A stretch of 62,342 nucleotides of DNA, counting the filler, from Babesia bigemina (taxonomy: Eukaryota), in assembly GCF_000981445.1 (NCBI RefSeq). It is 14 parts of 14 records of this genome, joined end to end, with 100 filler letters (N's around TTAATTAATTAA, not from the genome) between each part and the next. Parts side by side here need not be neighbours in the genome. Positions count along the whole stretch, not along the records: positions 18,982 to 30,141 come from NW_012236938.1; 13 more parts are not named here. The stretch is one strand, 5' to 3'. The translations under genes were made by a program, and so were the position numbers. This document shows positions 19,721-50,501 of the stretch, piece after piece. The first letter of the stretch is position 1; the number at the start of each line of letters is the position of its first letter. The notes beneath the pieces are model-generated. The model saw only the letters and a list, made by a program, of their open reading frames with translations. It did not search any database and was not told where the DNA came from.

Positions 19721-22300
19721 TTATGGTTGCAGGTAAAACACTCTGTTAAGCTTGTTAACACGCGCAGCAGCAAGTAGCGATTGAGCAGCAATCCTATGAC
19801 TCGACGGACTATGCAAATGCGATTTGATGTGGAGCAGGTCGAGGCGGATGACCATGATGTGGATGAGGTAGAGGAAGGAGAGGAGCCAGAGAGAAAGGAC
19901 GAGGTAGGAGAAGGGTTGTCGGATGATCCAGAGGAAGTTGTCACATTCTTCGAACAGCTTCTTGAAATACTGCGATTCAAGCACATTCTTCAATTGACTA
20001 CAGAAATCGGAGCACTTCTTCGGCGATGCCTTGTCATTCAACGTCGACGCCTCACCAAAGACGAAACCATACTGGTAGAGCGTTGGTGCGACGCCTTTGC
20101 AGTCGACAATGGAAGAGCACTGACATTTGTTATTTGGCTTCTCATCATTAACAACACCATGCTCCCCCTTCTTACACTTATCACCACGGAGACATCCACG
20201 GCATCCCCAGTCCTGGCAGTTGATGGAGCAGAAGGCGTTGTAGAGACTGTTAAGTAAATCCCAAAACGTCCACGGGAGGTAGATGGCCCAGGAGAGGTAG
20301 GTGTTGGCGTGTTTGTAAGCGACTATTTCATAAGAATAATTACACAGAGATGAAATATAGGATGCGCAGTTAATTCTGTCTTCGCCTAGCTTACACATGC
20401 CGTTTATCGTAAGATTTCGAAGATGGTAGCTTTCACATTTAGAATGGCTAATAGCGTCGGAACCGTATGCATCAGCGATGGATTTTGTGAGCGCGTATGG
20501 ATCCTTATAAAGCTCGATAGATTGCGATTCGATGGACGACACAATAGCATACGAGAATGTGTCACTCCTAACATATAAGGGCTTATTAGTGTTGATGTAC
20601 TGCGCAAGCGACAACGCAAATCCGAAATGCTCAGGTAGGCTGGTGGGCGGCTTCGGTATTAGAGTGAATAAGCATGAAATATCGACATTATCTAGGAACT
20701 TGGTTAGCACTTTGCATACGTCCCTGCCTTTCCTCGTACTACCAGAAAAACCGCGGAAGCCAAGTGGAGGTTGACATGGCATTCCTTTTCTAGAGGTGGA
20801 CGGACAAGTAGCGCACTCATATTTGCATCCAATTTTAGTAAGCTGGTGCGGCAAATGACCAGGTAGACAATCATTTAAATAGGACATAAGTGGCGATGTT
20901 GGTTGGCAGTTTACATCGGTATTTGCCCGGCACGTTGGTTGGCACTTTGCTTGCTTGGTTGGCTGACCCGTTGCTTCTTCACTTGAGTGCTCCTCGCATG
21001 GCCATTTTGCTGGAGCGGCATTGACACCATATTGGCAGTCGGACCAACCGTGGTGTTTAGCAGTCAGGCCACATTGGCTTTTCAAGAAACTCAATGTTGG
21101 TAACATTCTTCGGAGGATGTCAAAGAACATGTCAAGGCAGTCCTCTCCTGTAGCAGGGTAATGGAACTTAATGGAGTTATTGGAGTAATCGCTAGCGTAC
21201 ACTGTGTATTCATCTCCGTGGCCGGCTATAGTGCAGAGAATGTCGTATGATGTTGAGCAGATGTGCGTCACCGCCGTTCGCATATGTTCATATGATGCCT
21301 TTCTCGGGTAGGCTTCTAGAGATATGGAATCGGTGTCGACGACACTGTGCGTAATGGCATCTTCGCTGGTCGTCTCAGTTGTATCTCCTTGGTCTCTCTT
21401 TGCGTCTTCCTCTTTTTCCGCTTCATTGATCTCGTCTATCACTTCCAGGATTCGCCCATCTCGCATGGCTGTATGGACGGGATGATGCGGAAGACCGGAG
21501 AGCCATAGAAGCATTTCATAGACGCTGCATGGTCTTTTCGTCGATGTTAATGCGGACAGGTGACATACATCGTTGTAACGGTTGAGACAATCATAAAGGT
21601 AATGGAGAATGTCGACGACGTTGATTTGATAAGGATTCCTGTTGTTAGCTTTCTTGAGTTCACTAATCTCCGCTACCCACGCAGCAGTCGTTCTTATATT
21701 GCCAGATGAACCAATATTATCGCTGAGCAGATCGTCATAAATTTTCCTACCATTCATAGATGGCATGTCCTGCAACTCACCGGTCTGCTTGCCTTTCACG
21801 GAATTAATCCTGTAACCACGTTTCTCAAAATACTTACCGAACACATTCTTCTCATACGCATTAATTTGCCTAGCTAAATTGGATTGACATTCTTTTTTCA
21901 GCTTCCCCAACCCACCAACCAGTATCTCCACTATCGTCAGGCATACCTTGGCGCAGTTGCGGCCCTCAGGGGTTAAATCGTAATCAGGGGGGGAATCTGG
22001 TTTTTGAGTGTCGGCAGGATCTTTAGGCTTAAGCTTAGTTAGATCACCCTGGAATTTGTTACCACTATACCTGCTCACGTACGCGTGGCCGAGTTGCTGC
22101 GCGAAGTTGGAGAGGCCGGACTTGAGGGGGGCGAGGAGGGGGGAGTCAAGGTCACCAAACTTTTTGGGAGCGAAGTTGTCAAGGGCGTTTCGGAGGTAAT
22201 TTAGGTTAGTGTGGAAGGTGTGGTCGAAGTGATGGACATTAAGATGACCAAAATTTGGTCGACTTCGGTCAAGGTAATTTATTGGAGGCGATTTAGGCAA
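19721..22300 (-). CDS. ves1: VESA1-family gene lacking the N-terminal ~1000 aa (tail type A); truncated or silent copy
   Basis: 859-codon frame without an ATG start, beginning at the HFDH motif that is internal in the long copies and ending NRVFYLQP. Confidence 0.8.
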   Translation of the reverse strand: MPKSPPINYLDRSRPNFGHLNVHHFDHTFHTNLNYLRNALDNFAPKKFGDLDSPLLAPLKSGLSNFAQQLGHAYVSRYSGNKFQGDLTKLKPKDPADTQKPDSPPDYDLTPEGRNCAKVCLTIVEILVGGLGKLKKECQSNLARQINAYEKNVFGKYFEKRGYRINSVKGKQTGELQDMPSMNGRKIYDDLLSDNIGSSGNIRTTAAWVAEISELKKANNRNPYQINVVDILHYLYDCLNRYNDVCHLSALTSTKRPCSVYEMLLWLSGLPHHPVHTAMRDGRILEVIDEINEAEKEEDAKRDQGDTTETTSEDAITHSVVDTDSISLEAYPRKASYEHMRTAVTHICSTSYDILCTIAGHGDEYTVYASDYSNNSIKFHYPATGEDCLDMFFDILRRMLPTLSFLKSQCGLTAKHHGWSDCQYGVNAAPAKWPCEEHSSEEATGQPTKQAKCQPTCRANTDVNCQPTSPLMSYLNDCLPGHLPHQLTKIGCKYECATCPSTSRKGMPCQPPLGFRGFSGSTRKGRDVCKVLTKFLDNVDISCLFTLIPKPPTSLPEHFGFALSLAQYINTNKPLYVRSDTFSYAIVSSIESQSIELYKDPYALTKSIADAYGSDAISHSKCESYHLRNLTINGMCKLGEDRINCASYISSLCNYSYEIVAYKHANTYLSWAIYLPWTFWDLLNSLYNAFCSINCQDWGCRGCLRGDKCKKGEHGVVNDEKPNNKCQCSSIVDCKGVAPTLYQYGFVFGEASTLNDKASPKKCSDFCSQLKNVLESQYFKKLFEECDNFLWIIRQPFSYLVLSLWLLSFLYLIHIMVIRLDLLHIKSHLHSPSSHRIAAQSLLAAARVNKLNRVFYLQP

Positions 22301-22552
22301 TTTTTAAGGGTCGAAGAAATTTCGCAAAATTAGGTGAAAGGGCAGTCAGGGAGGTAAAGGGAGGTGGAGAGGGAGGTGAGGGAAGTGATGGAGATTAAGA
22401 TAACAAAAATTTGGTCAATTTCGGATGAGGTAATTTTTCTGAGGCGATTTAGGCAATTTTTAGGGGTCGAAGAAATATTGCAAAATTAGGTGAAAGGGCA
22501 GTTAGAGGGGTTAAGGGAGGTGATGAAGGGGATGGTAAGTGTAATTAAAGAA

Positions 22553-23316
22553 GCGATGTGGAGTGGATAAAGGGGCGATGTAGAGTGGGTCAAGGGGCGA
22601 TGTGGAGTGGATAAAGGGGCGATGTAGAGTGGGTTAAGGGCGATGTAGAGTGGGTTAAGGGCGATGTAGAGTGGATAAAGGGGCGATGTGGAGTGGATAA
22701 GGAGCGATGTAGAGTGGATAAAGGGGCGATGTGGAGTGGATAAGGGGCGATGTAGAGTGGGTTAAGGAGCGACGTAGAGTGGATAATAATCACCACTTGT
22801 GACCATGTCATCGCTGCCGTAACCATGTCATCGCTGTCGTAACCATGTCATCGCTGCCGTGACCACTAACTTGGTGAGGTGCTTGGTCATCACGTTGGTC
22901 ATGGCATTGGTCAACACTTTGGTCAGCACATTGGTCATGGCATTGGTCAACACTTTGGTCACCACTTTGGTCATGGCATTGGTCAGCACCTTGGTCAACA
23001 CCTTGGTCACCACGTTGGTCAGCACATTGGTCAGCACTTTGGTCACCACTCTGGTCAACACGTTGGTCAGCTGTTAGGTCAGCACTTTGGTCAGCACATT
23101 GATCAACACTGTCATCGCTGCCGTGTCCATGTCATCGCTGCCGTGCCCATGTCATCGCTGCCGTAACCACAACAATGTCATCGCTGCCGTGACCATGTCA
23201 TCGCTGCCGTAACCATGTCATCGCTGCCGTTACCATGTCATCGCTGCCGTGACCATGTCATCGCTGCCGTGTCCATGTCATCGCTGCCGTGACCATGTCA
23301 TCGCTGCCGTAACCAC
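22553..23316. repeat. Composite array: 23-bp (22553-22785), 20-bp (22798-22865), 12-bp (22870-23108), 20-bp (23109-23316)
   Basis: Direct inspection. Confidence 0.95.
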
Positions 23317-23339
23317 TAACTTGATCAGGTGCTTGGTTA

Positions 23340-23893
23340 ACACGTAGCTTGCGTGCTCGCTTAGCACTTTGCCTGGGTGCCAGCTTAGCACTTTGCCTGG
23401 GTGCTAGCTTAGCACGTTGCCTGGGTGCTAGCTTACCACTTTGCCTGGTTGCTAGGTTAGCACTATGCCTGTTTGCTAGCTTAGCACTTTGCCTGGGTGC
23501 TAGGTCAACACGTTGCCTGGGTGCTAGCTTAGCACTTTGCCTGTGTGCTAGCTTAGCACTTTGCCTTAGTGCTAGGTTGACACGTTGCCTGAGTGCTAGG
23601 TTACCACTTTGCCTGGTTGCCAGCTTAGCACTTTGCTTGTGTGCTAGCTTAGCACTTAGCCTGGGTGCCAGCTTACCACGTTGCCTGGGTGCTAGGTCGC
23701 CACGTAGCCTGGGTGCTAGGTCAACACTTTGCCTGGTCGCTAGGTCAGCACTTCGCCTGGTTGCTAGCTTAGCACGTTGCCTGGGTGCTAGCTTAGCACT
23801 TAGCTTGTGTGCTAGCTTAGCACTTAGCCTGGGTGCAAGCTTAGCACTTTGCCTGGGTGCTAGGTCAACACGTTGCTTGGTCAACACGTTGCT
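23340..23893 (-). repeat. 24-bp tandem repeat
   Basis: Reverse complement of the 16475 unit. Confidence 0.95.
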
Positions 23894-24036
23894 TTGTCTT
23901 ACAGTCATCACCTAATCTTGGTGCTATCTAGTTCACAGGTTGCCGCTAGAGTAATTCGAGACATTAGACTACGTTTGTTGGTTAGGTGAGTAGGTGATTC
24001 GCTAAGTGAGTGTAGTGATTAGAAACGTGAATACAA

Positions 24037-27000
24037 TTACGGCTGTAGATACGATATCTTGGCAAGCCTTCCGACTTGCGCTGCAGCCAACAGCGATTGC
24101 GCCGTTATTTTGTGCGATGACGGTATCCTCAGGTGTGAGCGTATGTGGAGCACATCCAGTCTGCCAACCATCACGCAGATGAGGTAGAAGAGGGAGAGTG
24201 ACCAGAGTGCGAGAACCATGTAGGTGAACGGCTCTCTGATGGTCCAAATGAAGTTGTCACATTCCTCAAATAATTTGGTGAAGTATTGCGATTTTAGCAG
24301 ATTACTCAGTTGTGTATTGAAACTAAGACAGTATTTTCGGTCAGGTCCATACAGCGTTTTTGCGTCGCCAAAAGTGAACCCGTATTGGTAGAACGTAGTC
24401 ATCACTCCACGACAGCTTATCAATGCGTTGCACTTACAGCTGTACTCGACACCATGCTTTCCCGGCTTGCACGAACATTTCGTACAACCGGAGCCTCCAC
24501 AATCAATCTGCTGGAACGCATCGAGCAACGATTTCAGGTAACTGTAGAATGTCCACGGCAGATATACAGCCCATGACAGGTAGAGATCGGCGTGCTTTTT
24601 GGCGAGGTACGTGTACGCATCGGAAGATGTGGAGCAGAGGTAGGGAGCGCAGTGAATATCCCTGTCATGAGGTAGATTGCATGATTCTCTTGACAGGCTC
24701 CACAAGTCAGCTTCCGTGGATTTGGAATGGCCCGAGCTGTTGTGGCCTGTTTGGTTGCGATATGCATTCTGCAGCGCACCTGTGAGTTTGCTTGTCTCCT
24801 TGTATAGCTCGATGGACAGCGCTTTGGTTTTTGTTTCAAAAGCTAAGCTGACATCATCACTGGCGGACTTGCCATGATCTAACATACTGCTTAGCGTCAA
24901 CGCAAATTGGAAGTGTTCGGGCAACGTAGATGGCGGCTTGGGCAGCAGACCGAACAGCATGTTAATATTCGAATTGTCGAAGAATTTGGTCAGCACGTTA
25001 CATATGTCCTTACCTGTCTTCGTGTATCCAGAGAAACCTCTGAAGCCAAGTGGTGTTATACATGGCGCACCGGGTAGGCTTTTGGGACACGTTTTACATT
25101 CGGACTTACATCCCGCTGAAACCAACTGGTGAGGCAGGCACCCGGGTAGGCAGTCGCGAAGATACGACATCAGCGGTGATCTAGGTAGGCAATCGGTCGA
25201 CTCCTCAGCAGGATGTTCACGGCATTGCCAATTGGAGTGTTTGACTCCTCTGCCGTACTGACAGCCGGACCAGCCGTGGTATGTAGCGCTTAGGCCGCAT
25301 TGAGTATGCAAAAATTTAAGCGAGGGTAGTAGTCTGCGAAGAATGTCCAATAGCATCTGGAGGCAATCTTCGCCCCTGGATGGGTAGTGAAAGTTCAGCG
25401 AATTGGTCGAGTAGTCAACGGCGTACATGGAGTACGCGTCCCCGGTTCCAGCGATTGTTGTGAGAATATCGTGGGATCTGGAACACAGGCGTTTCACTGC
25501 TCGCTGAGTATCATCCATCGCTATGTTTTGTGGATACGCTGCCAGGGGTTCGTCGCTGATATATGTGACGGGGATGCCATCGGCGTCTTCGGGCTGTTTA
25601 CTTGGATCGACGAATAGTTCACTGATAGCGTCATCCAACATATCTTGATACACGTTATTGCACGGGAGACCAGACACCCAGCAAAGCATCTCGAATATGT
25701 TACATGGACGTTTCCTCGCAGAGAAGGTGGCGACGTGGCAGACTTGGTAATATATCTGGAGACAGTCGTGCAGTGTATCCAGTGCGTTTTGCTTGGATTT
25801 ATCAATGTAATACAAGTGGTGTTCATCTTTCCCGAACATACGTTTGCAGATGAATAATCCTATCATGCCTTTACTGTCCTGCAGCTCCCAGTGCTTCTTC
25901 CCGTCCTCGGTAACTTTGTAGCCTTGAGTGGCAAAATATTTTCCGAGCTCTGTGTTCATGTTTATTTGATCGCTTTTACACCTTGCAACGCAGTACTTCA
26001 GTATAGTCTTGAACTCGGAATACAGGATGGAGAGCAGCGACAGGCACACTTTAGCGCATTTCGCGGAGTCTTCGGACGGGTAGTCTTTATTATTTGTTTT
26101 TTGTGACCAAACAATGCTATCGGCACCGTCATACACGTTCACGTACGCCTTTTCCAGCTCACCCACCAGCGCCGGGTACCCCCTTCTCAGCGCTTCCAAA
26201 ACTGACGGACTCTCACCATCGCCGAATTTCTCCGGAGTGAATTGGCCAAGTCGGTACTTAAGCCTTTGCAGGTTTTTTGTAAATCCGTGGTCGAAGTGCT
26301 GTGAATCTGCAAGGTCCTTGAGCAGCTTGTTGAGAGCGTCGTTGGGGGAGGAGATTTTGTCGAAGTCGAAGGTGAAGCCTTTTTGGGTGCGCAATGCATC
26401 AAAAAAATTGGCAAAGGATTGTTTTACTCTTTCTGCTAACTCGTGGAGTTTCTTCTGTTCCAGTGACTTTGGAGGTGGAGACGCCCTTGGGTAAAAGTCT
26501 TCAATTGGAACCATAAATCCGTCTTTGATTTTTTGCAACATACCCTTAATTGCGGTGTTACGATCTTCTTGAATGATCGTGAAAATGTTGCCAAGCTGTG
26601 TGTCAACTAATTTCCGGAGCGCTGCCAAGTCTGCTTCATGCCCCTTGGCAAACAGACTCCTCACCTCCTGGGTCAGTATCTCGATGGACTTTTTCACGGA
26701 TTCGGTAAGATCGTTTTGGACGCTGGTGATTGCACCCTGAAGGGCCTGGCGGGAGGAGAGGACGGCTGTTTTCAGTTTTTCAATGGCGGTGTCTAAAGTT
26801 TCGTTGGCGTCTCTCACAGTGACAGCGATGTTATTCAATTGCCATTTGAGTGTTTCCTTCAACTTATTTAACAGCTCTACAGCATCACTGGTTTTGCTAA
26901 CTACGGTTGAGGGAATTGTTTTGAGCCCACTAATGTGGCTGTCAATGAACTTTGCCGCATTTGTGAGCGCTGTATTGGCGGCGTACAATGATGGCATAAG

Positions 27001-29562
27001 GTGACTTAGATCTTCGCCAATCTTCGCAGCTAAGTCCCAACCCCCGCCTTTTTGACCAAATGCTTCCCGAACCTTCGACACAAGATCATCGGTAAGGTCT
27101 ACCCCAGTTCTGATCGCCGTTGTTAATACGTTTTTCCTATAATTAAAGTTATATTTTTTTTCGAGATTCACAATAATTCTGCCACTCGCTGCACTATCCT
27201 TAGTCATTTTGTTAACATGAGTTTTGACAGCATGAATGGCTTTGTCAAGGTCGCTGGCCGGAGCACCAATGAGATTCTTAGACAGTTCACCAGCCAAAAT
27301 TCGTGCCTCATCTACGTTCTTAAATTTACAATCGTTCAGCAATATTTCCACCATATTTGCAGCTTGCCTGGCGGTAGCGTAGAGAGCGGGAAGGGTATAT
27401 TCGACGGCTATCCCAAGGTTTGGATTGCTAATTTCCAATGGTTTATAGTGTGCTGATTGCAAAATGTTTCTCTCAACGTTCTTGGCTATTTTTTCGGCCA
27501 CATCCGTAATGACTTCGGATAACAGTTTAGCATCAAGCCCTCTAACAAATTCATTGATACAAGACACGACTTTCTGCAGCACCGTTTTGCTGTCATCCCG
27601 TTCATCAATAATAAGATTGACTTTGCCAATTTCTGCATTAAACTCCGATTTAATGGCAGCGATGATTTGGCGGCGAATGGCATCCACATTATCAAATCCA
27701 ATATTAAACTTATTCGCCAACTTGTAATCACGTTGACTTTGCTGAATATGTTGATCAATCTTCTTATCTTTAATTAAAATACTCTCAATCCACCCTCCCA
27801 AAACTTTATTTTCGAAATGTTGCTTAGTGAAGTTCTTACCATACGCCTCAACTGCACTAGCTATTCCCCCGAGGCCTTCTCTATTATTGTTATGACCATT
27901 CAGCAATTTTACAGCTTCGCCACTAATTTTGTTTACCGCTTCCTTTATAGTTTTTTTACACACAGCTCCATCAGTACCGATTGCGCTGCAAAGTTTTTCA
28001 ATCGCCGGATCAACTTTCTCCACATCCAGTTTCATATCCCACAACTTCTCCTTATACGCCTGTTCAAGCTCCTCTATGGCTATCGTAGCTTTTTTGACGT
28101 AAGCCGTCGCATGTTCCGCCAACTTATTATTGATGGTCGTTCTCAACTTCTCCAAATCATGTTTCACGAAATCACCCAACCCGGCAACGTAATCCTGGAC
28201 CGTTTTGATGTTGGTGGTGAACAGAGTGTCTACATCTCCTTTGACGAACTCCTCAATTGCCACTTTAATTTCCTTAAAATATCCAATAACCTTTTTATTA
28301 GAACCTTCACGGTAATCCCCCAGCTCCCTTTCTACTGCGTCCCTGGACATGTCAATCGCGGCTCGGATGGTTGACACTTTTTCTGCTTTACTCCGTATCA
28401 GACTTTCGACAGTAGAATTTATTTTTTCGAATTCGTTATGCAATGTATCGCGAAGTTTATGTGATTTCAAGTCTATCTGCTGTACTAATTCAGTCTGCTG
28501 TTTTCCCAACTCATCGTCCACTGCTTTCACCTGACTCACGAATTTTTTGTTATTTGACGACTCACGTAAGTGCTCTAAAACCTTTTTTATTGGTGTCATT
28601 TCACCATTCATTTTATTACTTAACTTAGTATCTAACAAATTGATTCTTTCTGTTTCGATTTTTCTGACCTCTTGCTTAAGGCTGTTAATTGCAGTGGTCC
28701 AAGCCGTCAGCTGTACATTAAGTTCGTTCGAGGAGTTGATTTTGCTACTTTTATCGATGATAGAAGTGTCATTTAATTTCACTAGCGCCGTTATCACTTC
28801 ACTGTTTTTTTCATCTAACTTATTCCCATACCCCTCCAACCACCTCTTCACCGCGCCGACAGCTTCCACAAGCCCAGCACGCCCGGAGCCAATTTTACTA
28901 TCTACAAGTTTTAGTACTTCATTAAGCTTTTTATTGTCTTCAGTGATGTAATTATCATAAGTTGTGACTTCATTTTCGTTTTTCACCGCACCAAGCACAC
29001 CACTCAAAAATCCCATCACCCCGTCACACATCCTGTCAAGGTCAGAGTACACAATCCCCTGGCCAGTGTAGCCTTTAGTGTCAGAGTCGAAGCCGAGGAA
29101 GGTTTCGATGCCGGAACATAGATTATCTAACAGCTTTTTAGGATCATTTGACGCATTATTACGATTAGTCAAAAATTCACAAAGCTTCTCCACTTCCTTC
29201 AAAGCGTCCAACTTGGACTGCAATTTGTCTGGGTCAGCAGAGGGAGTGGGGGAAGAAGGAAGATTATTAAGATGGTTATTAGGCTGTTTAAGTTGATCTT
29301 CAAGACGCTGAATTTCTGGAGTAACTAACTTACTAAGCTCACTAATTTTCACGGTGTCAACAGCCTGGTCAACAGACTTGACAGACTCAGAAAGCTTAGT
29401 AACATAAGGAGAGTAAAGCTTTTTTAGGTCATCATGACTGTTAATTTTAGCGATAATAGCATTCTCAACGGCTTTCTTAACACTCTCACTTTGACCAACA
29501 AATCCGCCAAGTTGACCAGCAAGGTGACCAAGGCTAATGAGCTTGGACTCAATGTCCTCCAA
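24037..29562 (-). CDS. ves1: Long VESA1-family gene (1841 codons, tail type B ...KISYLQP); first in-frame ATG at 29031
   Basis: GIVYSDLDRMCDGVMGFLSGVL block, long coiled-coil region, Cys-rich domain, TM and tail. Confidence 0.9.
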   Translation of the reverse strand: MEDIESKLISLGHLAGQLGGFVGQSESVKKAVENAIIAKINSHDDLKKLYSPYVTKLSESVKSVDQAVDTVKISELSKLVTPEIQRLEDQLKQPNNHLNNLPSSPTPSADPDKLQSKLDALKEVEKLCEFLTNRNNASNDPKKLLDNLCSGIETFLGFDSDTKGYTGQGIVYSDLDRMCDGVMGFLSGVLGAVKNENEVTTYDNYITEDNKKLNEVLKLVDSKIGSGRAGLVEAVGAVKRWLEGYGNKLDEKNSEVITALVKLNDTSIIDKSSKINSSNELNVQLTAWTTAINSLKQEVRKIETERINLLDTKLSNKMNGEMTPIKKVLEHLRESSNNKKFVSQVKAVDDELGKQQTELVQQIDLKSHKLRDTLHNEFEKINSTVESLIRSKAEKVSTIRAAIDMSRDAVERELGDYREGSNKKVIGYFKEIKVAIEEFVKGDVDTLFTTNIKTVQDYVAGLGDFVKHDLEKLRTTINNKLAEHATAYVKKATIAIEELEQAYKEKLWDMKLDVEKVDPAIEKLCSAIGTDGAVCKKTIKEAVNKISGEAVKLLNGHNNNREGLGGIASAVEAYGKNFTKQHFENKVLGGWIESILIKDKKIDQHIQQSQRDYKLANKFNIGFDNVDAIRRQIIAAIKSEFNAEIGKVNLIIDERDDSKTVLQKVVSCINEFVRGLDAKLLSEVITDVAEKIAKNVERNILQSAHYKPLEISNPNLGIAVEYTLPALYATARQAANMVEILLNDCKFKNVDEARILAGELSKNLIGAPASDLDKAIHAVKTHVNKMTKDSAASGRIIVNLEKKYNFNYRKNVLTTAIRTGVDLTDDLVSKVREAFGQKGGGWDLAAKIGEDLSHLMPSLYAANTALTNAAKFIDSHISGLKTIPSTVVSKTSDAVELLNKLKETLKWQLNNIAVTVRDANETLDTAIEKLKTAVLSSRQALQGAITSVQNDLTESVKKSIEILTQEVRSLFAKGHEADLAALRKLVDTQLGNIFTIIQEDRNTAIKGMLQKIKDGFMVPIEDFYPRASPPPKSLEQKKLHELAERVKQSFANFFDALRTQKGFTFDFDKISSPNDALNKLLKDLADSQHFDHGFTKNLQRLKYRLGQFTPEKFGDGESPSVLEALRRGYPALVGELEKAYVNVYDGADSIVWSQKTNNKDYPSEDSAKCAKVCLSLLSILYSEFKTILKYCVARCKSDQINMNTELGKYFATQGYKVTEDGKKHWELQDSKGMIGLFICKRMFGKDEHHLYYIDKSKQNALDTLHDCLQIYYQVCHVATFSARKRPCNIFEMLCWVSGLPCNNVYQDMLDDAISELFVDPSKQPEDADGIPVTYISDEPLAAYPQNIAMDDTQRAVKRLCSRSHDILTTIAGTGDAYSMYAVDYSTNSLNFHYPSRGEDCLQMLLDILRRLLPSLKFLHTQCGLSATYHGWSGCQYGRGVKHSNWQCREHPAEESTDCLPRSPLMSYLRDCLPGCLPHQLVSAGCKSECKTCPKSLPGAPCITPLGFRGFSGYTKTGKDICNVLTKFFDNSNINMLFGLLPKPPSTLPEHFQFALTLSSMLDHGKSASDDVSLAFETKTKALSIELYKETSKLTGALQNAYRNQTGHNSSGHSKSTEADLWSLSRESCNLPHDRDIHCAPYLCSTSSDAYTYLAKKHADLYLSWAVYLPWTFYSYLKSLLDAFQQIDCGGSGCTKCSCKPGKHGVEYSCKCNALISCRGVMTTFYQYGFTFGDAKTLYGPDRKYCLSFNTQLSNLLKSQYFTKLFEECDNFIWTIREPFTYMVLALWSLSLFYLICVMVGRLDVLHIRSHLRIPSSHKITAQSLLAAAQVGRLAKISYLQP

Positions 29563-29736
29563 AGCTTTTTAGTAGCATCATCAATAAAAGAATGGTCAGT
29601 ATCAGCAAGTACTTATAAAGGTTTATAGAGGTCATAGCGTTGATAAGACAAAGTAATTCGAGAGATTTGGACTTAGGGTGAACATGATGGGACATGGCAG
29701 TGGCAAGCGGTGGAAGAAGGGAAGTGAAGAGCGACA

Positions 29737-29794
29737 AGGCACAAGTTATTATTGTGGTTAATAGAGGTCATAGCGGTATTATGGCGAGGTAATT
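29737..29794 (-). promoter_or_regulatory. Conserved ves 5' leader (AATTACCTCGCCATAATACCGCTATGACCT...ATAACTTGTGCCT); also ~40345-40402, ~48868-48928, ~59947-60008 and ~60301-60362
   Basis: Five copies, each immediately after a 23-bp array; four are followed by a ves frame and the fifth runs into a contig end. Function unknown. Confidence 0.7.
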
Positions 29795-32700
29795 TGGGCG
29801 ATGTAGAGTGGGTAAAGGGGCGATGTGGAGTGGATCAGGGAGCGATGAAGAGTGGATAAAGCGGCGATGTAGAGTGGATTAGGGAGCGATGTAGAGTGGA
29901 TAAAGGGGCGATGTAGAGTGGGTAAAGGGGCGATGCAGAGTGGGTAAAGAGGCGATGTAGAGTGGGTAAAGGAGCGATGTAGAGTGGATAGAGGAGCGAT
30001 GTAGAGTGGGTAAAGGGGCGATGTGGAGTGGATAAGGGAGCGATGTAGAGTGGATAAGGGAGCGATGTGGAGTGGATAAAGGGGCGATGCAGAGTGGGTA
30101 AAGGGGCGATGTAGAGTGGATAAAGGGGCGATGTAGAGTGGNNNNNNNNNNNNNNNNNNNNNNNNNNNNNNNNNNNNNNNNNNNNTTAATTAATTAANNN
30201 NNNNNNNNNNNNNNNNNNNNNNNNNNNNNNNNNNNNNNNNNAGGGGCGATGTAGAGTGGATAAAGGAGCGATGTAGAGTGGAGTAAGGGGCGATGTAGAG
30301 TGGATAAAGGGGCGATGTAGAGTGGGTAAAGAGGCGATGTGGAGTGGATTAGGAGCGATGTAGAGTGGGTTAAGGGGCGATGTAGAGTGGATTAAGGGGC
30401 GATGTAGAGTGGATAAGGGGCGATGTAGAGTGGGTTAAGGGGCGATGTAGAGTGGATTAAGGGGCGATGTAGAGTGGATAAGGGGCGATGTAGAGTGGGT
30501 TAGGGAGCGATGTAGAGTGGGTTAAGGGGCGATGTAGAGTGGACTAAAAGGCGATGTAGAGTGGATTAGGGAGCGATGTAGACACGGTTAAGGAGCGATG
30601 TGGAGTGAGTTAGGGGGCGATGTGGAGTGGAAAAAGGAGCGATGTAGAGTGGGTAAAGGGGCGATGAAGGGAGGTTAAGGAGCGATGGAGACTGGGTTAG
30701 GGAGCGATGTAGAGTGGGTTAAGGGGCGATGAAGGGTGGGTTAGGGAGCGATGTAGAGTGGGTAAAGGGGCGATGTAGAGTGGGTCAAGGGGCGATGTGG
30801 AGTGGGTTAAGAGGGCGATGTAAACTGGGTTAAGGGGCGATGTAGAGTATGTTAGGGGCGATGTAGAGTGGGTTAGGGACGCGATGTAGATGTGGGTATA
30901 GGAGCGCATGTAGAGTGGATAAAGGAGCGATGTAGAGTGGATAAAGGATGCGATGTAGCGTGGATAAAGGGGCGATGTAGAGTGGGTAAAGGAGCGATGT
31001 AGAGTGGGTTAAGGAGCGATGTAGAGTGAATAAAGGGGCGATGTAGAGTGAATAAAGGGGCGATGTAGAGTGGATTAAGGGGCGATGTAGAGTTGATAAA
31101 GGAGCGATGTAGAGTGGGTAAAGGGCGATGTAGAGTGGATAAAGGGGCGATGTGGAGTGGGTAAGGGACGATGTAGAGTGGGTTAGGGAGCGATGTAGAG
31201 TGGGTTAAGGGGCGATGTAGAGTGGGTTAAGGGGCGATGTGGAGTGGGTAAAGGGGCGGTGTAGAGTGGGTTAAGGGGCGATGTGGAGTGGGTAAAGGGG
31301 CGGTGTAGAGTGGGTTAAGGGGCGATGTAGAGTGGGTTAGGGAGCGATGTAGAGTGGGTTAAGGGGCGATGTAGAGTGGGTTAGGGAGCGATGTAGAGTG
31401 GGTTAAGGGGCGATGTAGAGTAGATTAGGGGCGATGTAGAGTGGGTTAAGGGGCGATGTAGAGTGGATAAAGGGGCGATGTAGAGTGGATAAAGGGGCGA
31501 TGTGGAGTTGATAAAGGGGCGATGTAGAGTGGGTTAGGGAGCGATGTAGAGTGGGTTAAAAGGCGATGTGAAGTGGATAAAGGGGCGATGTAGAGTGGGT
31601 AAAGGGGCGATGTAGAGTGGATAAAGGGGCGATGTAGAGTGGATAAAGGAGCGATGTAGAGTGGGTAAAGGAGCGATGTAGAGTGGATAAAGGGGCGATG
31701 TAGAGTGGATAAAGGGGCGATGTAGAGTGGAGTAAGGGGCGATGTAGAGTGGGTTAAGGGGCGATGTAGAGTGGATAAAGGAGCGATGTAGAGTGGAGTA
31801 AGGGGCGATGTAGAGTGGATAAAGGGGCGATGTAGAGTGGGTAAAGAGGCGATGTGGAGTGGATTAGGAGCGATGTAGAGTGGGTTAAGGGGCGATGTAG
31901 AGTGGATTAAGGGGCGATGTAGAGTGGATAAGGGGCGATGTAGAGTGGGTTAAGGGGCGATGTAGAGTGGATTAAGGGGCGATGTAGAGTGGACAAAGGG
32001 GCGATGTAGAGTGGGTTAGGGAGCGATGTAGAGTGGGTAAAGGGGCGATGTAGAGTGGATAAAGGGGCGATGTAGAGTGGGTAAAGGGGCGATGTGGAGT
32101 GGGTAAGGGAGCGATGTAGAGTGGATAAGGGGCGATGTGGAGTGGGTAAGGGAGCGATGTAGAGTGGATAAGGGGCGATGTAGGGTGGGTAAAGGAGCGA
32201 TGTGGAGTGGATAAAGGAACGATGTAGAGTGGGTTAGGGAGCGATGTAGAGTGGGTTATGGAGCGATGTGGAGTGTGTTAAGGGGCGATGTAAGGTGGAT
32301 AAGGGAGCGATGTAAAGTGGGTTAAGGGGCGATGCAGAGTGGATAAAAAGGCAATGTGGAGTGGATAAAGGAGCGATGTAGAGTGGGTTAGGGAGCGATG
32401 TAGAGTGGGTAAAGGAGCGATGGAGAGTGGGTTAGGGAGCGATGTAGGGTGGGTTAAGGGGCGATGTAGAGTGGGTAAGGGAGCGATGTAGAGTGGATAA
32501 AGGGGCGATGTAGAGTGGATAAAGGGGCGATGTAGAGTGGGTTAGGGAGCGATGTAGAGTGGGTTAAGGGGCGATGTGGAGTGGATTAGGGAGCGATGTA
32601 GAGTGGGTTAAGGGGCGATGTAGAGTGGGTTAAGGAGCGGTGTTGAGTGGGTTAGGGAGCGATGTAGAGTGGGTAAGGGGCTATGTAGAGTGGATAAAGG

Positions 32701-33070
32701 AGCGATGTGGAGTGGGCTAAGGGGCGATGTAGAGTGGATAAGGGAGCGATGTAGAGTGGATAAAGGGGCGATGTAGAGTGGGTTAGGGAGCGATGTAGAG
32801 TGGATTAAGGGGCGATGTAGAGTGGATTAAGGAGCGATGTAAGGTGGGTTAGGGAGCGATGTAGAGTGGGTAAAGGAGCGATGTAGAGTGGGTAAAGGGG
32901 CGATGTAGAGTGGATAAAGGGGCGATGTAGAGTGGGTTAAGGAGCGATGTAGAGTGCATTAGGGAGCGATGTAGAGTGGGTTAAGGGGCGATGTAGAGTG
33001 CATTAGGGAGCGATGTAGAGTGGGTTAAGGGTCGATGTGGAGTGGGTAAAGGGGCGATGTGGAGTGGGTA
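29795..33070. repeat. 23-bp G-rich arrays (29795-30141 and 30242-33070, separated by a linker)
   Basis: Direct inspection; more than 100 units. Confidence 0.98.
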
Positions 33071-33092
33071 ATAATCACCACTTTGGTCACCA

Positions 33093-33272
33093 CTGTCGCC
33101 GCTGCCGTGACCATGTCATCTCTGCCGTGACCATGTCATCGCTGCCGTGACCATGTCATCGCTGCCGTGTCCATGTCATCGCTGCCGTAACCATGTCATC
33201 GCTGCCGTAACCATGTCATCGCTGCCGTGACCATGTCATCGCTGCCGTGACCATGTCATCGCTGCCGTGACC
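33093..33272. repeat. 20-bp tandem repeat
   Basis: CCATGTCATCGCTGCCGTGA units. Confidence 0.95.
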
Positions 33273-33370
33273 ACTAAATTGGTCACCTCACTGCTTATGT
33301 GATTGGCCATCAACGCACTCATTACTCTGTCTAGCACATTAGATGTCAGTTGCCAGTCAGGTTATTGTAA

Positions 33371-33814
33371 TTAGCTGCGCAGTAGATACCGCACCCTGTG
33401 GAACGGCCGGATGCGGAAGTATATCATGGCGCAGATGACGACGATGACGAGGGCGATAGGTGCGATGATGTAAGGCGCGGGGGAACCGGTGGTAGGCGGT
33501 TGAATGACGGCTTGATGCTCAGCTGTGCGGGAAGAAGAGGAACCGGAGTCAAGGGCGGCACTGGGAGTTAAAGAGAGACGGGAAGGGTAGAGGACTATGC
33601 GTTTCTCGACACAACAGTTACATAGACAGTCGCTGTAACACTCTTTACATCTCGAATGATCGCACTGCTCCTGTCCATTCTTGCGCAAATAGGAGAAGTG
33701 GATACATTGAAGACACCGTGCTATACATCCTTTACAACACCAAGAACAGCAATTACACACTACCTCTTCTTTGCATTGCTTATTACACTTGTAACACCGC
33801 TCCCCTTTCCCCAT
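33371..33814 (-). CDS. Small 18-Cys hypervariable single-TM protein, copy 2 (147 aa)
   Basis: Same scaffold, start context and YFRIRPFHRVRYLLRS tail. Confidence 0.85.
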   Translation of the reverse strand: MGKGERCYKCNKQCKEEVVCNCCSWCCKGCIARCLQCIHFSYLRKNGQEQCDHSRCKECYSDCLCNCCVEKRIVLYPSRLSLTPSAALDSGSSSSRTAEHQAVIQPPTTGSPAPYIIAPIALVIVVICAMIYFRIRPFHRVRYLLRS

Positions 33815-33924
33815 CTTCCCGCTCCCCTCCCAGTCCCCTCAGCCTGCGAACATATCAATCACCTATCAACGCACTCACCAACTGCAACACGTACCACTGC
33901 CGCTCCCAGTCCCCTCACCAACGC

Positions 33925-34412
33925 ACTCACCGCTGTATCCCCCCAGCCCGGGCCACCGACACCCGCACTGCCCGGGATACCACAGCTGCCCTGACGCGAC
34001 GCATGTCATCAGCACCAACTGTCACTTTAAATTATTCACTATTCGCAACGCCATAAAAATTGCAGCGAGCCACGTGCGCTCAACTCCCACAGTGCAGCAG
34101 CACCGTGCTACGAGCCGCGGTATCGGCGCCATACTGGCGGAGTGTGTCGGCTACGTGCCTAAATGTTATATTAACGATCGCTACATTGCCGCCTATAAAT
34201 GCTACTTAACTAGGCCAACGCGGATTACGCCACCCTGCCAGCGACTCGCAACACACGGCTTACGTCACCCGCCGCGGCCCTCACGGCCGCCTACGTTAGC
34301 GACCAATCACCCAGCCTCACGTGACACTCACTCAATGGGTAACGCGTACACCTCTCACAGTCAACGCACAACTCAACGCCACAACACCTACCAAATTACG
34401 GTTCATCCGCCA
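33925..34412 (-). promoter_or_regulatory. Conserved ~500-bp element, copy 2 (followed by only ~1.5 units of the 75-bp repeat, 33820-33925)
   Basis: High similarity to 16826-17330. Confidence 0.6.
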
Positions 34413-34840
34413 GCTTAGCACTTTGCCTGAGTGCTAGGTTAGCACTTTGCCTGGGTGCCAGCTTACCACTTTGCCTGGGTGCTAGGTCACCACTTTGCCT
34501 GAGTGCTAGCTTAGCACTTTGGTCATGGCATTGGTCAACACGTTGCCTGGTTGCCAGCTTAGCACTTTGCCTGGATGCTAGCTTAGCACTTAGCCTGGGT
34601 GCTAGGTCAACACTTAGCCTGGGTGCCAGCTTAGCACTTAGCCTGGTTGCTAGGTTAACACTTCGCCTGTGTGCCAGCTTAGCACGTTGCCTGGTTGCTA
34701 GGTTACTACTTTGCCTGGTTGCCAGCTTAGCACTTTCCCCGGTTGCCAGCTTATCACTTAGCTTGCGTGCTACCTTATCACTTTGCCTGGGTGCTAGGTT
34801 AGCACTTTACCTGCGTGCTAGGTCAACACGTTGCTTGGTC
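34412..34840 (-). repeat. 24-bp tandem repeat
   Basis: Direct inspection. Confidence 0.95.
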
Positions 34841-34979: not shown

Positions 34980-37900
34980 TTACGGTTGTAGATACGATAT
35001 TTTGGCAAGCCTTCCGACTTGCGCTGCCGCCAACAGCGATTGCGCCGTTATCCTGTGCGATGATGGTGATCGTAAGTGCGATTTGATGTGCAGCACATCC
35101 AGTCTGCCAACCATCACGCAGATGAGGTAGAAGAGGGAGAGTGACCAGAGCGCTAGGGTCATCCACAGGAATGGTGCGCGGATGGTGAACATGAAATTAT
35201 CAATGGCTTTGAAGAACTGCACAAGATGTGAGTCTTTCTCAAATGCCTCCTTAAATACATTACAGAAATCTCTGCACGTGCGTTTCGTATGCGATTGTCC
35301 ATCCCTGTTCAGCCTCTCTGGATCGCCGAGAACAAAGCCGTATTTTGCCAATGTCGGCAGCGTTGAATTGCACTTTACAATGGATTTGCATTTGGGATCG
35401 TGATATCGTGGCGGTTGATACGTCGTTGATGTAGTTGGACACTCCTTGACGCACGCTTTTTGATGACAATTCGATCCCCTGGCACCGCATTTGGAGTTGC
35501 ACTCATCGTACAACTTTTTAAGCAGATCGTAGAACGATGCCGTCAGATAGACAATCCACGACAAATACTTATCGGCGTGTTTTGCTGAGAACGTCTCGTA
35601 GATGGCGTGACCGATGGGCCGCAGATAAGGACCGCATACGACGGCGTCCCGTGATAAGCATACGAGACTGGCCAGGCTACCAGCGGCATGCCCCTTCCAC
35701 GCTGCTGAGTGACTAGCGGAAAATAAGTGGTAGACGTTCAAATCATTATACTGACGCCCGAAATTGGCTGCGTTAACTTTCTCATTAAATGCCCGTTGTT
35801 TATGCGCTTGACCATACATACCCCAGCGATCGGTGAGGTGATAGTAGAAGCTGAACATGTCCGCCAGCGTTTTCGGCGCACTAGGCAGAAGGCAGTTGAG
35901 GTAACTGCACAGTCTAGTGAGCGGCGAATTTGGACGGCCACAGAAATACACAAGCACATCGCATATATCCCGGCCAATCATCGTATGCGACGCGATGGCG
36001 CTGATGTCGGCGAAGCCCATTGGAGTTCGGCACGGCATACCAGGTGAATTACCACAAGTGCCACATGACAGACTGGATCCCCTAGCCGTAACCGAATGCG
36101 GCAGGTGGCCTTTCAGACCGTCCTCCAAGAACGATTGCAGTGGCGACTTGACGCCGCAGCTGGGATATTGCTCACCCGTTTGGTTGCCACTTTGGTCATG
36201 CCTTTGGTCACAGTCTTGCTTAGGGCATTGCTTCGTGTTGCACTGCCAGCCCGACCCACCGATGTACCTGCCGTAGTGGCAGTCCCTCCAGCCGCTGAGC
36301 TGTGCGTTGTACTTACACTGCTGCAGCAGGAAGTACAGCTGGTGGTAGAGGCGCTTAAGCAGGTCGAACAACGTGCACAACAGTTGAATCATGTTGGTAG
36401 GGTAATCTAATTTCAGCGAGTTGTCGGAGAAATCACACGCGTAGATTCCGTCCTTGTGACCGTGGCCTAGGATAGCGGTGAGGACGGCGTGGGAGTTGGC
36501 AGACACTTTGTAGAGCGCTTCGTCGATATGCGTGTGTTCAAAGTCAGACGGGTGCGTATCGAAGGGCTGCAGTATCTTCTCACCCGGACGTTGCTTGTCC
36601 TCCTTCATGAACTCGGACTCAATGTGCTTCTTCAGCTTGCCGTACACGGGGTTGAACTGCAGGCCGTTGCACCAGACAAGAATTTCGTAAACGGAGCATG
36701 GAGCCCTGGGTTTGTCAACACGAGTAAGGTGGCATACAGCGAAGTACGTCTGCAGGAAATCATAGAGTTTTCGGATGAGACCACTCTCCTCCGCGATGGT
36801 TACATCAAGCTCGTCCGACCCGGATGTGGATGAAGGAATGCCGGTGACGGGAGATGACAGATGACTGAACAAATTATGCGTCTCGTTGGTAAGGTGTTCG
36901 AGAATGCTGCTACCATTAAAATCAGTTTTGTGATTCAGCTCGCCATGCTCAGCGTTCTCAGGACGATGGACGTCATACCCGTTGTCGCGGAAGAAGAGAG
37001 CGCGGAGGCTGGAGGTGCCGTCAGCTGGGTGATATATTTTGTGGCCATCCCAACCGCTGTATTCGAGTCTATTCTTGAGTTCAGTTAGAGCGTCGTATAA
37101 GATGGGCGTGATGGTCCAACAGATTTTGGCGTAGTTTCTTCTTTCCGCCTCGGTGAGTTTCTCCCATTCGATGGTCCTCAAAGAATACGTTGAAACGTAG
37201 GCTTTTTTGAGCTCCTCGACGAGAGGGGTGAAGCCTGCTTTTAGAGCATTGAGGAGTGAGGGGCACTTGGCTGCGCCGTAGGTAGAGGGCTTGAAGGCGG
37301 TAACAGATTCATTAAGGTTACTCAGGTTCTTGGTGAAGACATGATCGAAGTGCAGTGATTGTGCTAGGACAGTGAGTAAGTTTGTCACTGCGTTGTACGA
37401 AGGCTTGATTTTGGAGGAGTCAGACTCGACATCAGTTTGATTCTGCAGATTAAGGAGGAATGATTTAAAGGCGCCGTGTGATATCGATGCCGCCTCTCTT
37501 AATGGTGACGTTACAGCTGTGAAGGTGTTGGGATTGACATCTTCAATCTGCTCTACCCTCGCAATAAACTTCCCCGCCAGCCTGTTCATGAACCCCTTGT
37601 AACCGATGTCCAGATCGTCGGTGATTTCCTTAGGTAGAGGCTCCAACTCCTTCTCGGCTTTCTCCGCGAACTCTAGCAGAATGGCCTTCACCGAAGTGAC
37701 GTAGTTCTTGTTGACCTGGGTGATCAGAGTGTTCTGAGCTTCGTCGACGTTGGAGCTTACTACTTTGCCAATCGATGCGATTGTCGCCTGGGCTGTTGGA
37801 CCGGCGCTGGTGAGGAAGTTTTCAGCCTCTTTGATGGCCGCGCTTAAATCAATCAATCGCAGGTCGTTGAGTTTGTTTTTGACGTATTCAAGTTGCCCCT

Positions 37901-40349: not shown

Positions 40350-40404
40350 AAGTTATTATAATGGTGTAAGAAGGTCATAGCGGTATTATGGCAAGGTAAT
40401 TCGA

Positions 40405-48871: not shown

Positions 48872-48931
48872 GGCACAAGTTATTATTGTGGTTTAAAGAG
48901 GTCATAGCGGTAATATGGCGAGGTAATTGGA

Positions 48932-50155
48932 GGGATGTAGAGTGGGTAAAGGGGCGATGTAGAGTAAGTTAGGGAGCGATGTAGAGTGGGTAAAGGAGCG
49001 ATGTAGAGTGGGTTAAGGGGCGATGTGGAGTGGATAAAGGGGCGATGTGGAGTGGGTTAGGGAGCGATGTAGAGTGGGTTAGAGAGCGATGTAGAGTGGA
49101 TAAAGGGGCGATGTAGAGTGGATAAGCGGCGATGTAGAGTGGATAAAGGGGCGATGTAGAGTGCGTTAAGGGGCGATGTGGAGTGGGTAAAGGAGCGATG
49201 TAGAGTGGGTAAAGGGGCGATGTAGAGTGGATAAAGGGGCGATGTAGAGTGGGTAGAGGAGCGATGTAGAGTGGGTTAAGGAGCGATGTGGAGTGGGTAA
49301 GGGGCGATGTAGAGTGGGTAAAGGAGCGATGTAGAGTGGGTTAAGGAGCGATGTGGAGTGGGTAAGGGGCGATGTAGAGTGGGTTAGGGAGCGATGTGGA
49401 GTGGATTAAGGGGCGATGTAGAGTGGATTAGGGAGCGATGTAGAGTGGGTTAAGGGGCGATGTGGAGCGGGTTAAGGAGCGATGCAGAGTGGGTTAAGGG
49501 GCGATGTAGAGTGGATAAAGGGGCGATGTGGAGTGGGTTAAGGGGCGATGTAGAGTGTATAAGGAGCGATGTAGAGTGGATAATAATCACCACTTAGGTC
49601 ATGTCATCGCTGCCGTGACCATGTCGTCGCTGCCGTGACCATGTCGTCGCTGCCGTGACCATGTCATCGCTGCCGTGACCGTGTCATCGCTGCCGTGTCC
49701 ATGTCATCGCTGCCGTGACCATGTCATCGCTGCCGTGACCATGTCATCGCTGCCGTAACCATGTCATCGCTGCCGTGTCCATGACATCACTGCCGTGTCC
49801 ATGTCATCGCTGCCGTGACCATGTCATCGCTGCCGTGACCATCAACTTGTTTAGCACTTTGGTCATGTCATTGGTCAGCACTTTGGTCATGGCATTGGTC
49901 AGCACATTGGTCGTGGCTTTGGTCATCACTTTGGTCAACACGTTGGTCAGCACCTTGGTCAGCACCTTGGTCGTGGCATTGGTCAGCACCTTGGTCAGGT
50001 GCTTGGTCACCACTTTGATCATGGCATTGGTCAACACTTTGGTCATGGCATTGGTCATGGCATTGGTCACCACCTTGGTCAACACATTGATCAGCACTTT
50101 GGTCATGGCATTGGTCAGCACCTTGGTCAGCACATTGGTCATGACATTGGTCAGG
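48932..50155. repeat. Composite array: 23-bp (48932-49582), 20-bp (49600-49842), 12-bp (49848-50155)
   Basis: Direct inspection. Confidence 0.95.
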
Positions 50156-50249
50156 TGGTAGGTCACCTCACTGCTGATGTGATTAGTCATAAACGCACGC
50201 ATTATATTGTCTAGACATTAGATGTCAGTTGGCAGTTAAGTTATTCTGC

Positions 50250-50375: not shown

Positions 50376-50501
50376 TCACCTCACTGCTCATGTGCTTGAT
50401 CATAAACGCGCTCATTACTGTCTATAACATTAGATGTTAGTTGGCAGTTAGGAGATCAGTGGGATTTGGATTACGATGTTTGCGCTAACAAATTGCTGCG
50501 A

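What the first reader, a model, noticed from the sequence alone, without database searches (positions are those of the whole stretch)
29016..29794. Every 5'-complete ves frame is headless, with long Met-free openings and different entry points
Seen: the four long copies are open for 177, 83, 191 and 202 codons before the first in-frame ATG. That ATG always falls in the conserved (RM)CDGVMGFLSGVL block (29031, 40100, 48298, 61094). The upstream frames are clearly ves-like (ESIDWLIQV, LGHLAGQLG, NLCxGLETFLG) but join the same leader at different depths. Known: B. bovis expresses ves1 from an active locus and uses silent copies as gene-conversion donors. Inference: an archive of start-less cassettes completed by recombination or splicing, or use of non-AUG initiation. 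Automated models starting at MGFLSGVL would miss the extension.
Basis: partly seen in the sequence, partly recalled or inferred. Interest (0 to 1): 0.75.

Follow-up and report, generated by a model that had tools for sequence, protein, structure and literature searches.

The report
Headless surface-antigen gene archive in Babesia
In the cattle parasite Babesia bigemina, many copies of a large red-cell surface-antigen gene lack their normal start and sit head-to-tail behind a ladder of DNA repeats, likely as a spare-parts archive whose pieces are copied into the few complete genes to vary the parasite's coat.

Summary
Real. The window holds B. bigemina ves1b-type genes. The four long copies, plus a fifth that was missed (19721-22303), lack the conserved family start (M..KKLTDCPENLRESIDW), which intact relatives carry on the same exon as the body. 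Each copy follows a ladder of tandem repeats ending in a 22-bp array and a leader, and joins it at a different depth. Of 154 B. bigemina models retrieved, 28 have the full head, 48 start at the internal MGFL Met and 32 at leader ATGs. Headed genes are chromosome-internal; headless ones lie at chromosome ends or on small contigs. Headless frames stay open, share exact pre-ATG tracts with four small-contig headed loci, and are mostly silent in B. ovata RNA. Best reading (0.55): a donor archive for gene conversion, like Anaplasma msp2 pseudogenes or VSG arrays with 70-bp repeats. Against it: a published proteome has peptides for 12 of 13 headless chromosome-end models, so direct translation from the internal Met remains open. 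The Met-free opening is a family trait, not a signal. Splicing and non-AUG starts are poorly supported. No RNA reads could be laid. No description of this layout was found in six paper searches.

The parts
24037..29568 (-). Copy A: headless ves1b-type open frame, 1843 codons, first ATG at 29031
   Evidence: 60 of 61 30-mers match public model P0074
29010..29130 (-). Conserved NLC..G.ETFLG..YSDLDR.CDGVMGFL block of copy A (approximate limits); candidate 5' homology anchor, present in A-D
   Evidence: last 45 pre-Met codons 67-86% identical between copies, dN/dS 0.15-0.63
29569..29795 (-). Leader of A: two degenerate ~135-bp units, then ves-homologous sequence out of frame with the open frame (break near 29570 relative to D)
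29796..30141 (-). 22-bp tandem array upstream of A, running to the contig end; purine- and G-rich on the template strand
30242..34821 (-). Ladder downstream of B: 24-bp array, conserved block, Cys-rich TM passenger frame, 20-bp array, 22-bp array (129 copies)
34980..40352 (-). Copy B: open frame of 1790 codons, first ATG at 40100; the first ~20 codons are leader sequence
40290..40406 (-). Leader of B; its ATG (40378) is not in the ves frame here, but is in frame in 12 public models of the same junction type
40407..41750 (-). 22-bp array upstream of B, to the contig end
41851..43225 (-). Conserved 3' flank of C followed by 12-, 20- and 22-bp arrays (start of the next unit)
43226..48892 (-). Copy C: open frame of 1888 codons, first ATG at 48298; lacks only about the first 15 residues of the head
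48848..48933 (-). Short leader of C
48934..52549 (-). Complete ladder between the previous ves stop (52550) and C: 3' flank, 24-bp, conserved block, 75-bp, Cys-rich TM passenger, 12-, 20- and 22-bp arrays; no head exon
60111..60497 (+). 22-bp array and two-unit leader of D (89.5% identical to A's)
60488..62341 (+). Copy D: open frame cut by the window end, first ATG at 61094; same junction type as A
19721..22303 (-). Copy E: C-terminal half only, 860 open codons, entering about 1000 residues deep; no GVMGF block; first Met at codon 180
22226..24036 (-). Ladder between A's stop and E: 3' flank, 24-, 20-, 12-, 20- and 22-bp arrays, and a different 156-bp x1.9 leader
56434..60008 (+). Another full ladder ending in a leader at the contig end

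Best explanation
These are 5'-truncated ves1b-type antigen genes in head-to-tail arrays, each behind a repeat ladder and a shared leader, and they likely act as silent donors whose sequence is copied by gene conversion into the minority of complete, ATG-headed genes. Shown: the head is missing, joins lie at several depths, frames are open, and exact tracts, including tracts upstream of the first ATG, are shared with headed loci. Inferred: the conserved NLC..GVMGF block and the conserved C-terminus with its 3' flank would be the homology anchors. Inferred: the ladder would drive array expansion and exchange. Inferred: four MRH.PKK-headed loci are the likeliest acceptors. The direction of transfer and silence in B. 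bigemina are not shown.
For: Headed models: B. bigemina 24 of 24 chromosome-internal (2 only head-like), 2 of 14 chromosome-end, 2 of 108 small-contig; B. ovata 21 of 21 on its 3.70-Mb contig and 1 of 40 elsewhere. Two headed genes are single-exon by span, and no head is in the window. A, B, C and E are open for 1843, 1790, 1888 and 860 codons, although C's nearest relative is 53% identical. A and D share a junction and differ at 104 of 529 pre-ATG sites without a stop; neutral P = 0.03-0.04. E is open yet lacks the GVMGF Met. N-terminal variable regions of the 4 MRH-headed models are 18-94% covered by exact 15-mers from headless models, against a median of 0 for 20 chromosomal headed models. 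20 of 34 headless regions share tracts with those 4, against 6 of 34 with 26 chromosomal headed genes. Headed and headless C-termini intermix: 16 changes, 9 forced by starred branches. B. ovata RPKM: headed n=21, median 0.55, top 486.6; headless n=27, median 0.013, 13 zeros; p=7e-4. ves1b genes at conserved positions are 0-3.3% orthologous between strains (PMC4066756). The GVMGF Met sits inside a predicted helix, residues 183-204.
Against: The published proteome has rows for 12 of 13 headless chromosome-end models in my set. One of them (P0096, matched by mass to BBBOND_0300010) has a higher iBAQ than headed 0303890, 11090 vs 8525. This fits mosaics but equally direct translation. Two headless B. 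ovata models reach 32 and 46 RPKM. The top-expressed B. ovata gene shares only one 70-residue tract with the headless models sampled, and 18 of 28 headed B. bigemina models share none of 30 or more residues. A vs D dN/dS upstream of the block is 1.23 (CI 0.75-2.25), so no purifying signal there. Shared tracts have no direction and may partly be haplotype redundancy: P0213 is 92% covered by chromosomal headed models, and P0212 62% by one partial model. No DNA was available for public models, so some 'headless' ones may be contig-end fragments.
Confidence: 0.55

Rival explanations
1. Array copies are genes in their own right, translated from the internal GVMGF Met (or from an in-frame leader ATG in B-type copies) as N-terminally shortened antigens.
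For: Peptide rows for 12 of 13 headless chromosome-end models. Frames fully open. 12 public B-type models have the leader ATG in frame, all at identical spacing. Two headless B. ovata models are at 32 and 46 RPKM.
Against: It does not explain the open pre-ATG frames, or copy E, which lacks that Met. The leader peptide varies like non-coding DNA: mean BLOSUM -1.0 vs -0.13 in the block, and 14 synonymous vs 38 non-synonymous codon differences in the window. The Met is mid-helix in the model. 13 of 27 headless B. ovata models have zero reads. The proteome came from another strain than the models searched, with 1-7 quantified peptides of about 70-137 observable per row.
Confidence: 0.2
2. The copies are by-products of subtelomeric ectopic recombination: decapitated duplicates kept open by one-way copying from functional genes and from each other, with no donor role.
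For: Variable junctions, a frame break at the 5' edge of A and an out-of-frame leader ATG in B. Most exact tracts are shared among headless copies. Neutral-looking dN/dS upstream of the block.
Against: No internal stop in 8833 ves codons of the window, apart from one that ends a frame 52 nt before a contig end. Terminal branches have a median of 0.29 changes per site. Headless models far outnumber headed ones. Sequence matching them is found in protein.
Confidence: 0.13
3. A short leader-derived exon is spliced to the body, or a near-cognate codon starts translation, giving each copy a substitute N-terminus.
For: Every copy admits at least one in-frame GT-AG pair (11, 3, 2 and 6 options). Gene finders chose such joins in many public models. 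C-type junctions have a pyrimidine-rich run ending in AG, and recur at the same residue in B. ovata models.
Against: No leader donor has the GTRAG pattern (consensus recalled), unlike the GTGAGT/GTACGT sites in the 75-bp repeats. Models use different sites per copy, and two imply 11- and 17-nt introns. There is no shared near-cognate start. The conserved head is absent from the window.
Confidence: 0.08
4. The junctions are assembly chimeras at repeats.
For: Small contigs break in the 22-bp array. Vector sequence is present in the same contig set.
Against: The same leader-ves junction types recur in 32 of 154 public models, including chromosome-scale contigs, with 11% divergence between leaders A and D. 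B. ovata, a long-read assembly, shows the same headed/headless split.
Confidence: 0.04

Closest known systems
BbigVes1b family (Jackson et al. 2014, PMC4066756)
   Same: Homologous to proteins labelled ves1b (P0034 = BBBOND_0303890; E 1e-163; label); recombinogenic, rarely orthologous between strains.
   Different: The sections read do not mention headless copies, the leader or the ladder. The 18 proteome rows labelled ves1b are all chromosome-3 tags, while chromosome-end homologues are listed as hypothetical proteins.
B. bovis ves1 LAT with segmental gene conversion (PMC6630957; PMC2034396)
   Same: Silent paralogues donate patches to an expressed locus. Truncated unpaired ves1 were proposed as functional pseudogenes.
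   Different: In B. bovis about 70% of genes are intact divergent pairs that can themselves become the LAT. Here the sampled majority has no head and lies in tandem behind a repeat ladder.
Anaplasma msp2/p44 functional pseudogenes (PMC11946796)
   Same: Silent partial copies with conserved 5' and 3' flanks of a variable region, converted into an expression site.
   Different: Bacterial, short cassettes, a single expression site. Here cassettes are about 5 kb, there are over 20 headed genes, and a repeat ladder is present.
Pneumocystis msg-I with UCS and CRJE (PMC10622565)
   Same: Subtelomeric array genes, about 94% open, that depend on a unique upstream element.
   Different: One fixed 33-bp junction and a single-copy upstream element. 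Here joins vary in depth, heads are multicopy, and arrays point inward from the telomere.
Trypanosoma brucei VSG archive with 70-bp repeats (PMC4858185)
   Same: A conserved repeat upstream of archival antigen genes provides homology for conversion (abstract).
   Different: There the repeat is also in the expression site; whether headed ves loci carry the ladder could not be tested. VSG donors are not defined by a missing start (recalled).

Membership tests
BbigVes1b | Homology to genes labelled ves1b | tested here: met
   (P0034, P0027, P0031 and others)
BbigVes1b | Conserved C-terminal domain with one transmembrane helix | tested here: met
   Conserved C-terminus in A, B, C, E; the hydrophobic segment was read by eye, no TM predictor run
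BbigVes1b | Family N-terminal head with start codon (feature defined here from 28 B. bigemina models, not from the paper) | tested here: not met
   the copies are truncated members
BbigVes1b | ves1b versus recombinant ves1ba 3' end | not tested
   Two major C-terminal clades appear but were not assigned
B. bovis-type LAT/SGC | Divergent gene pair on a bidirectional promoter | tested here: not met
   Head-to-tail on one strand within contigs 9 and 11
B. bovis-type LAT/SGC | Expressed gene is a mosaic of silent donors | tested here: inconclusive
   MRH-headed models are patchworks, but their expression is unknown; expressed P0034 and P0041 share only 1 tract each of 30+ residues
msp2-type functional pseudogene archive | Partial copies with conserved 5' and 3' anchors around a variable body | tested here: met
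   Block conserved in A-D; C-terminus and 3' flank conserved; E lacks the 5' block
msp2-type functional pseudogene archive | Donors transcriptionally silent | tested here: inconclusive
   Mostly silent in B. ovata; peptide rows in B. bigemina; no reads laid
msp2-type functional pseudogene archive | Unidirectional conversion into an expression site | not testable with these tools
   Needs clonal time series
Pneumocystis UCS/CRJE | One fixed junction at the start of every array gene | tested here: not met
   Four junction types in the window; six anchor classes in public models
Pneumocystis UCS/CRJE | Single-copy upstream leader | tested here: not met
   28 full-head B. bigemina models
T. brucei 70-bp repeat archive | Conserved repeat upstream of archival genes | tested here: met
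   22-bp array directly upstream of 5 of 5 copies
T. brucei 70-bp repeat archive | Same repeat at the expression site, used as conversion boundary | not testable with these tools
   No DNA of headed loci obtainable

The most novel reading that the evidence does not exclude
B. bigemina, and probably B. ovata, evolved a dedicated two-tier antigenic-variation system. More than a hundred start-less ~5-kb cassettes sit at chromosome ends, each behind a G-quadruplex-prone repeat ladder, and are converted through the conserved NLC..GVMGF block into a few MRH.PKK-headed expression loci: a trypanosome/Pneumocystis-like archive in an apicomplexan, largely hidden in annotation as hypothetical or Ebh-like proteins.
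Probability: 0.3. Interest if true: 0.8.

Novelty: new variant of a known kind. Interest (0 to 1): 0.62.

Why it matters
It changes what the B. bigemina ves1b repertoire is: a small set of complete genes plus a much larger set of start-less copies that current models begin at the wrong place. Expression and proteomic counts for this family need re-reading, since chromosome-end homologues with peptide rows were listed as hypothetical proteins. It makes an open question testable: how B. bigemina and B. ovata vary their surface when only about a third of their ves genes are in B. bovis-like pairs. It also names candidate acceptor loci, anchors and a repeat element to examine.

Tried and rejected
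No whole genome is held. No RNA holder was listed for copy C; this is not evidence, and no reads were laid. Metagenome scans for a headed locus and for the leader found nothing. Our earlier findings held nothing. Pfam gave no hit at a curated cut-off and no VESA1 model for the window's ves frames or for headed relatives, only weak coiled-coil matches. Solved structures: best E 0.11 by sequence, none at E<=0.001 by fold. The bacterial promoter scan is irrelevant to a eukaryote and was ignored. The Met-free length was rejected as a signal. A resemblance between the reverse strand of the 22-bp unit and the head peptide (E>=9) was rejected as chance. My first reading of the proteome (18 of 18 labelled rows on chromosome 3; 12 of 12 of these in my set headed or head-like) was withdrawn as evidence of silence once the unlabelled chromosome-end rows were found. 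The tree left out 41 of 209 models without a recognisable C-terminus, plus P0074. The B. ovata gff3 supplement, which would show exon structure, could not be read. Figures of PMC4066756 (gene models, RNA-seq ranks) were not visible.
Full report
Setting. The window is 14 contigs joined by artificial spacers. It holds three complete long frames, A (24037-29568), B (34980-40352) and C (43226-48892), one cut by the window end, D (60488-), and a shorter copy E (19721-22303), besides contig-end fragments. All named homologues are from Babesia bigemina or B. ovata. They include proteins labelled BbigVes1b in the supplement of PMC4066756.

The observation. ATG positions are exact; the open codon counts are 179, 84, 198 and 202. 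Shuffles give such open frames 0 of 20000 times for A, C and D, and 4% of the time for B. The lack of Met is ordinary: 28 of 42 headed relatives with a recognisable block have none before it. What is unusual is the missing head. Intact relatives start M(1-8 residues)LT[DE]CP[ED]NLRE[SA]IDW. C joins at SIDW, A and D about 120 residues in, B about 250 in, and E about 1000 in. A tblastn search found no head-coding sequence elsewhere in the window: best E 0.13 in the output shown, which was cut, and the six-frame motif scan was also negative.

Anatomy. In coding direction each unit reads: previous stop, conserved 3' flank (76-90% identical over 90-160 bp), optional 24-bp array and a Cys-rich TM passenger, 12- and 20-bp arrays, 22-bp array, leader, ves frame. 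The 22-bp array precedes 5 of 5 copies. It is 74-77% purine on the template strand, with mean G4Hunter about 1.0 against about 0 in the frames; this is a prediction only. The leader is a degenerate ~135-bp repeat. Its ATGs do not read into the ves frame in any window copy, and its peptide varies like non-coding DNA.

Family-wide pattern. Among 210 models from two searches (best 120 of 122 and best 120 of 234 hits), heads segregate by place. In B. bigemina they occur in 24 of 24 chromosome-internal models (2 only head-like), 2 of 14 chromosome-end models and 2 of 108 small-contig models. In B. ovata they occur in 21 of 21 models on one 3.70-Mb contig and 1 of 40 elsewhere. With 17 shorter hits added, 154 B. 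bigemina models split into 28 with a full head, 48 starting at M[GAS]F[LF], 32 starting in the leader, and 46 others, some of which may be contig-end fragments. The sample is biased by the queries, and no DNA was available for these models. Gene spans in the proteome table show headed 0303890 and 0300080 to be single-exon, and show 11- and 17-nt 'introns' in two headless models, which look like frame patches. In the rows seen, left-end ves-sized models are forward, apart from headed 0300080, and right-end models reverse, so arrays point inward.

Constraint. No internal stop occurs in 8833 ves codons of the window, apart from one that ends a frame 52 nt before a contig end. The last 45 pre-Met codons show dN/dS 0.15-0.63 in 6 of 6 pairs, one interval including 1. 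The A-D region further upstream shows 1.23 (CI 0.75-2.25). A and D share a junction. Their leaders differ at 21 of 186 sites and their pre-ATG frames at 104 of 529, with no stop, where neutral simulation expects 3.1-3.5 (P 0.03-0.04). The one lasting frame break lies at the 5' edge of A's frame. So the untranslatable-looking part has been kept open while diverging faster than the leader.

Exchange. A FastTree of 172 C-terminal regions intermixes headed and headless B. bigemina rows: 16 changes, 9 forced by starred branches, against a shuffled mean of 22.9, so some clustering remains. Four small-contig models headed MRH.PKK have N-terminal variable regions covered 0.94, 0.61, 0.51 and 0.18 by exact 15-mers from headless models, and 0.12-0.43 without the best single source. 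For chromosomal headed models, 6 of 20 have any coverage. Copy C shares pre-ATG tracts with 6 headed models; A and D share none. In B. ovata, headless P0110 shares 70 residues with the top-expressed headed gene and 679 with another headed gene. Against a strong flow into chromosomal genes, 18 of 28 headed B. bigemina models share no tract of 30 or more residues. Direction cannot be read, and haplotype redundancy may contribute.

Expression. B. ovata Table S1 (PMC5660447) was searched for 21 of 22 headed and 27 of 40 headless models, 8 by accession and the rest by length, with 4 ambiguous lengths resolved by gene order or name. Medians are 0.55 and 0.013 RPKM and zeros are 2 and 13 (p=7e-4); the top value is headed (486.6), but headless models reach 46.5 and 32.3. 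Whether B. ovata has the same ladder is unknown; 0 of 73 of its models start with the B. bigemina leader. In the B. bigemina proteome, 12 of the 18 rows labelled ves1b are in my set and all are headed or head-like. However, 12 of 13 headless chromosome-end models also have rows, one ranking above headed 0303890. Peptides came from another strain, are few per model, and pre-ATG frames are absent from the models that start at MGFL. The result fits mosaic products and direct translation alike. It is the main reason confidence is only 0.55.

Mechanism. I commit to a donor archive. Shown: truncation, ladder, open frames, shared tracts, mostly low RNA in B. ovata. Inferred: conversion anchored on the NLC..GVMGF block and the 3' end, acceptor identity, and a recombination role for the ladder. 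An AlphaFold model of headed P0213 (59 sequences, pLDDT 82, pTM 0.52) places the head in a helix (12-27) and the GVMGF Met inside helix 183-204, a modest argument against starting there. Published support for the setting: ves1b genes at conserved positions are 0-3.3% orthologous between strains, and only 35% of B. bigemina ves1 are in divergent pairs.

Literature seen. PMC4066756: abstract, passages, sections 13, 20, 22 (part 1 of 2), 23, 24, 25 and 26, supplementary legends, and rows of the proteome table from three searches. PMC5660447: passages and table rows. PMC6630957: passages and section 7 part 2. PMC2034396, PMC10463595, PMC10471129, PMC9531838, PMC10622565 and PMC11946796: passages. 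PMC4858185: abstract. Truncated ves1 as possible functional pseudogenes was proposed for B. bovis. Searches turned up no description of headless ves1b arrays or of this ladder in what I read; subscription papers are not covered.

Verdict. A real, family-wide architecture; a new variant of the donor-archive kind of antigenic variation, not shown to be a member of any one known system. Interest 0.62.

Noticed in passing
window 12096-16250 (contigs 6 and 7): Cloning-vector sequence: TEM beta-lactamase frames in both contigs and plasmid-origin-like sequence; contig 6 matches bla/cat plasmids at 90-99%. Probably contamination of the assembly.
   Followed up: partly
window 50502-51098(-), 33371-33838(-), 58557-59030(+), 17770-18255(+): A Cys-rich, single-TM passenger frame inside the ladder, behind 75-bp repeats that look like repeated GT-AG introns. 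No clear atlas family, best score 0.84.
   Followed up: partly
proteins P0215-P0227 (B. ovata): 12 short B. ovata models have the head, and 11 of them are 201-341 aa, several ending just after the GVM block. These head-only units complement the headless copies; real genes or fragments, unknown.
   Followed up: no
window 22226-22522: Copy E uses a different 156-bp x1.9 leader, only about 60-69% like the others in short stretches.
   Followed up: partly
window 54044-56160: A contig made entirely of the 22-bp array, 96.6 copies.
   Followed up: no
window 924-1598(-): Frame with a hydrophobic N- and C-terminus by eye, resembling a small GPI-type surface protein.
   Followed up: no
PMC4066756 supplement 3: More than 20 chromosome-end ves-sized 'hypothetical' models have peptide rows but were not labelled ves1b in the published table.
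   Followed up: partly
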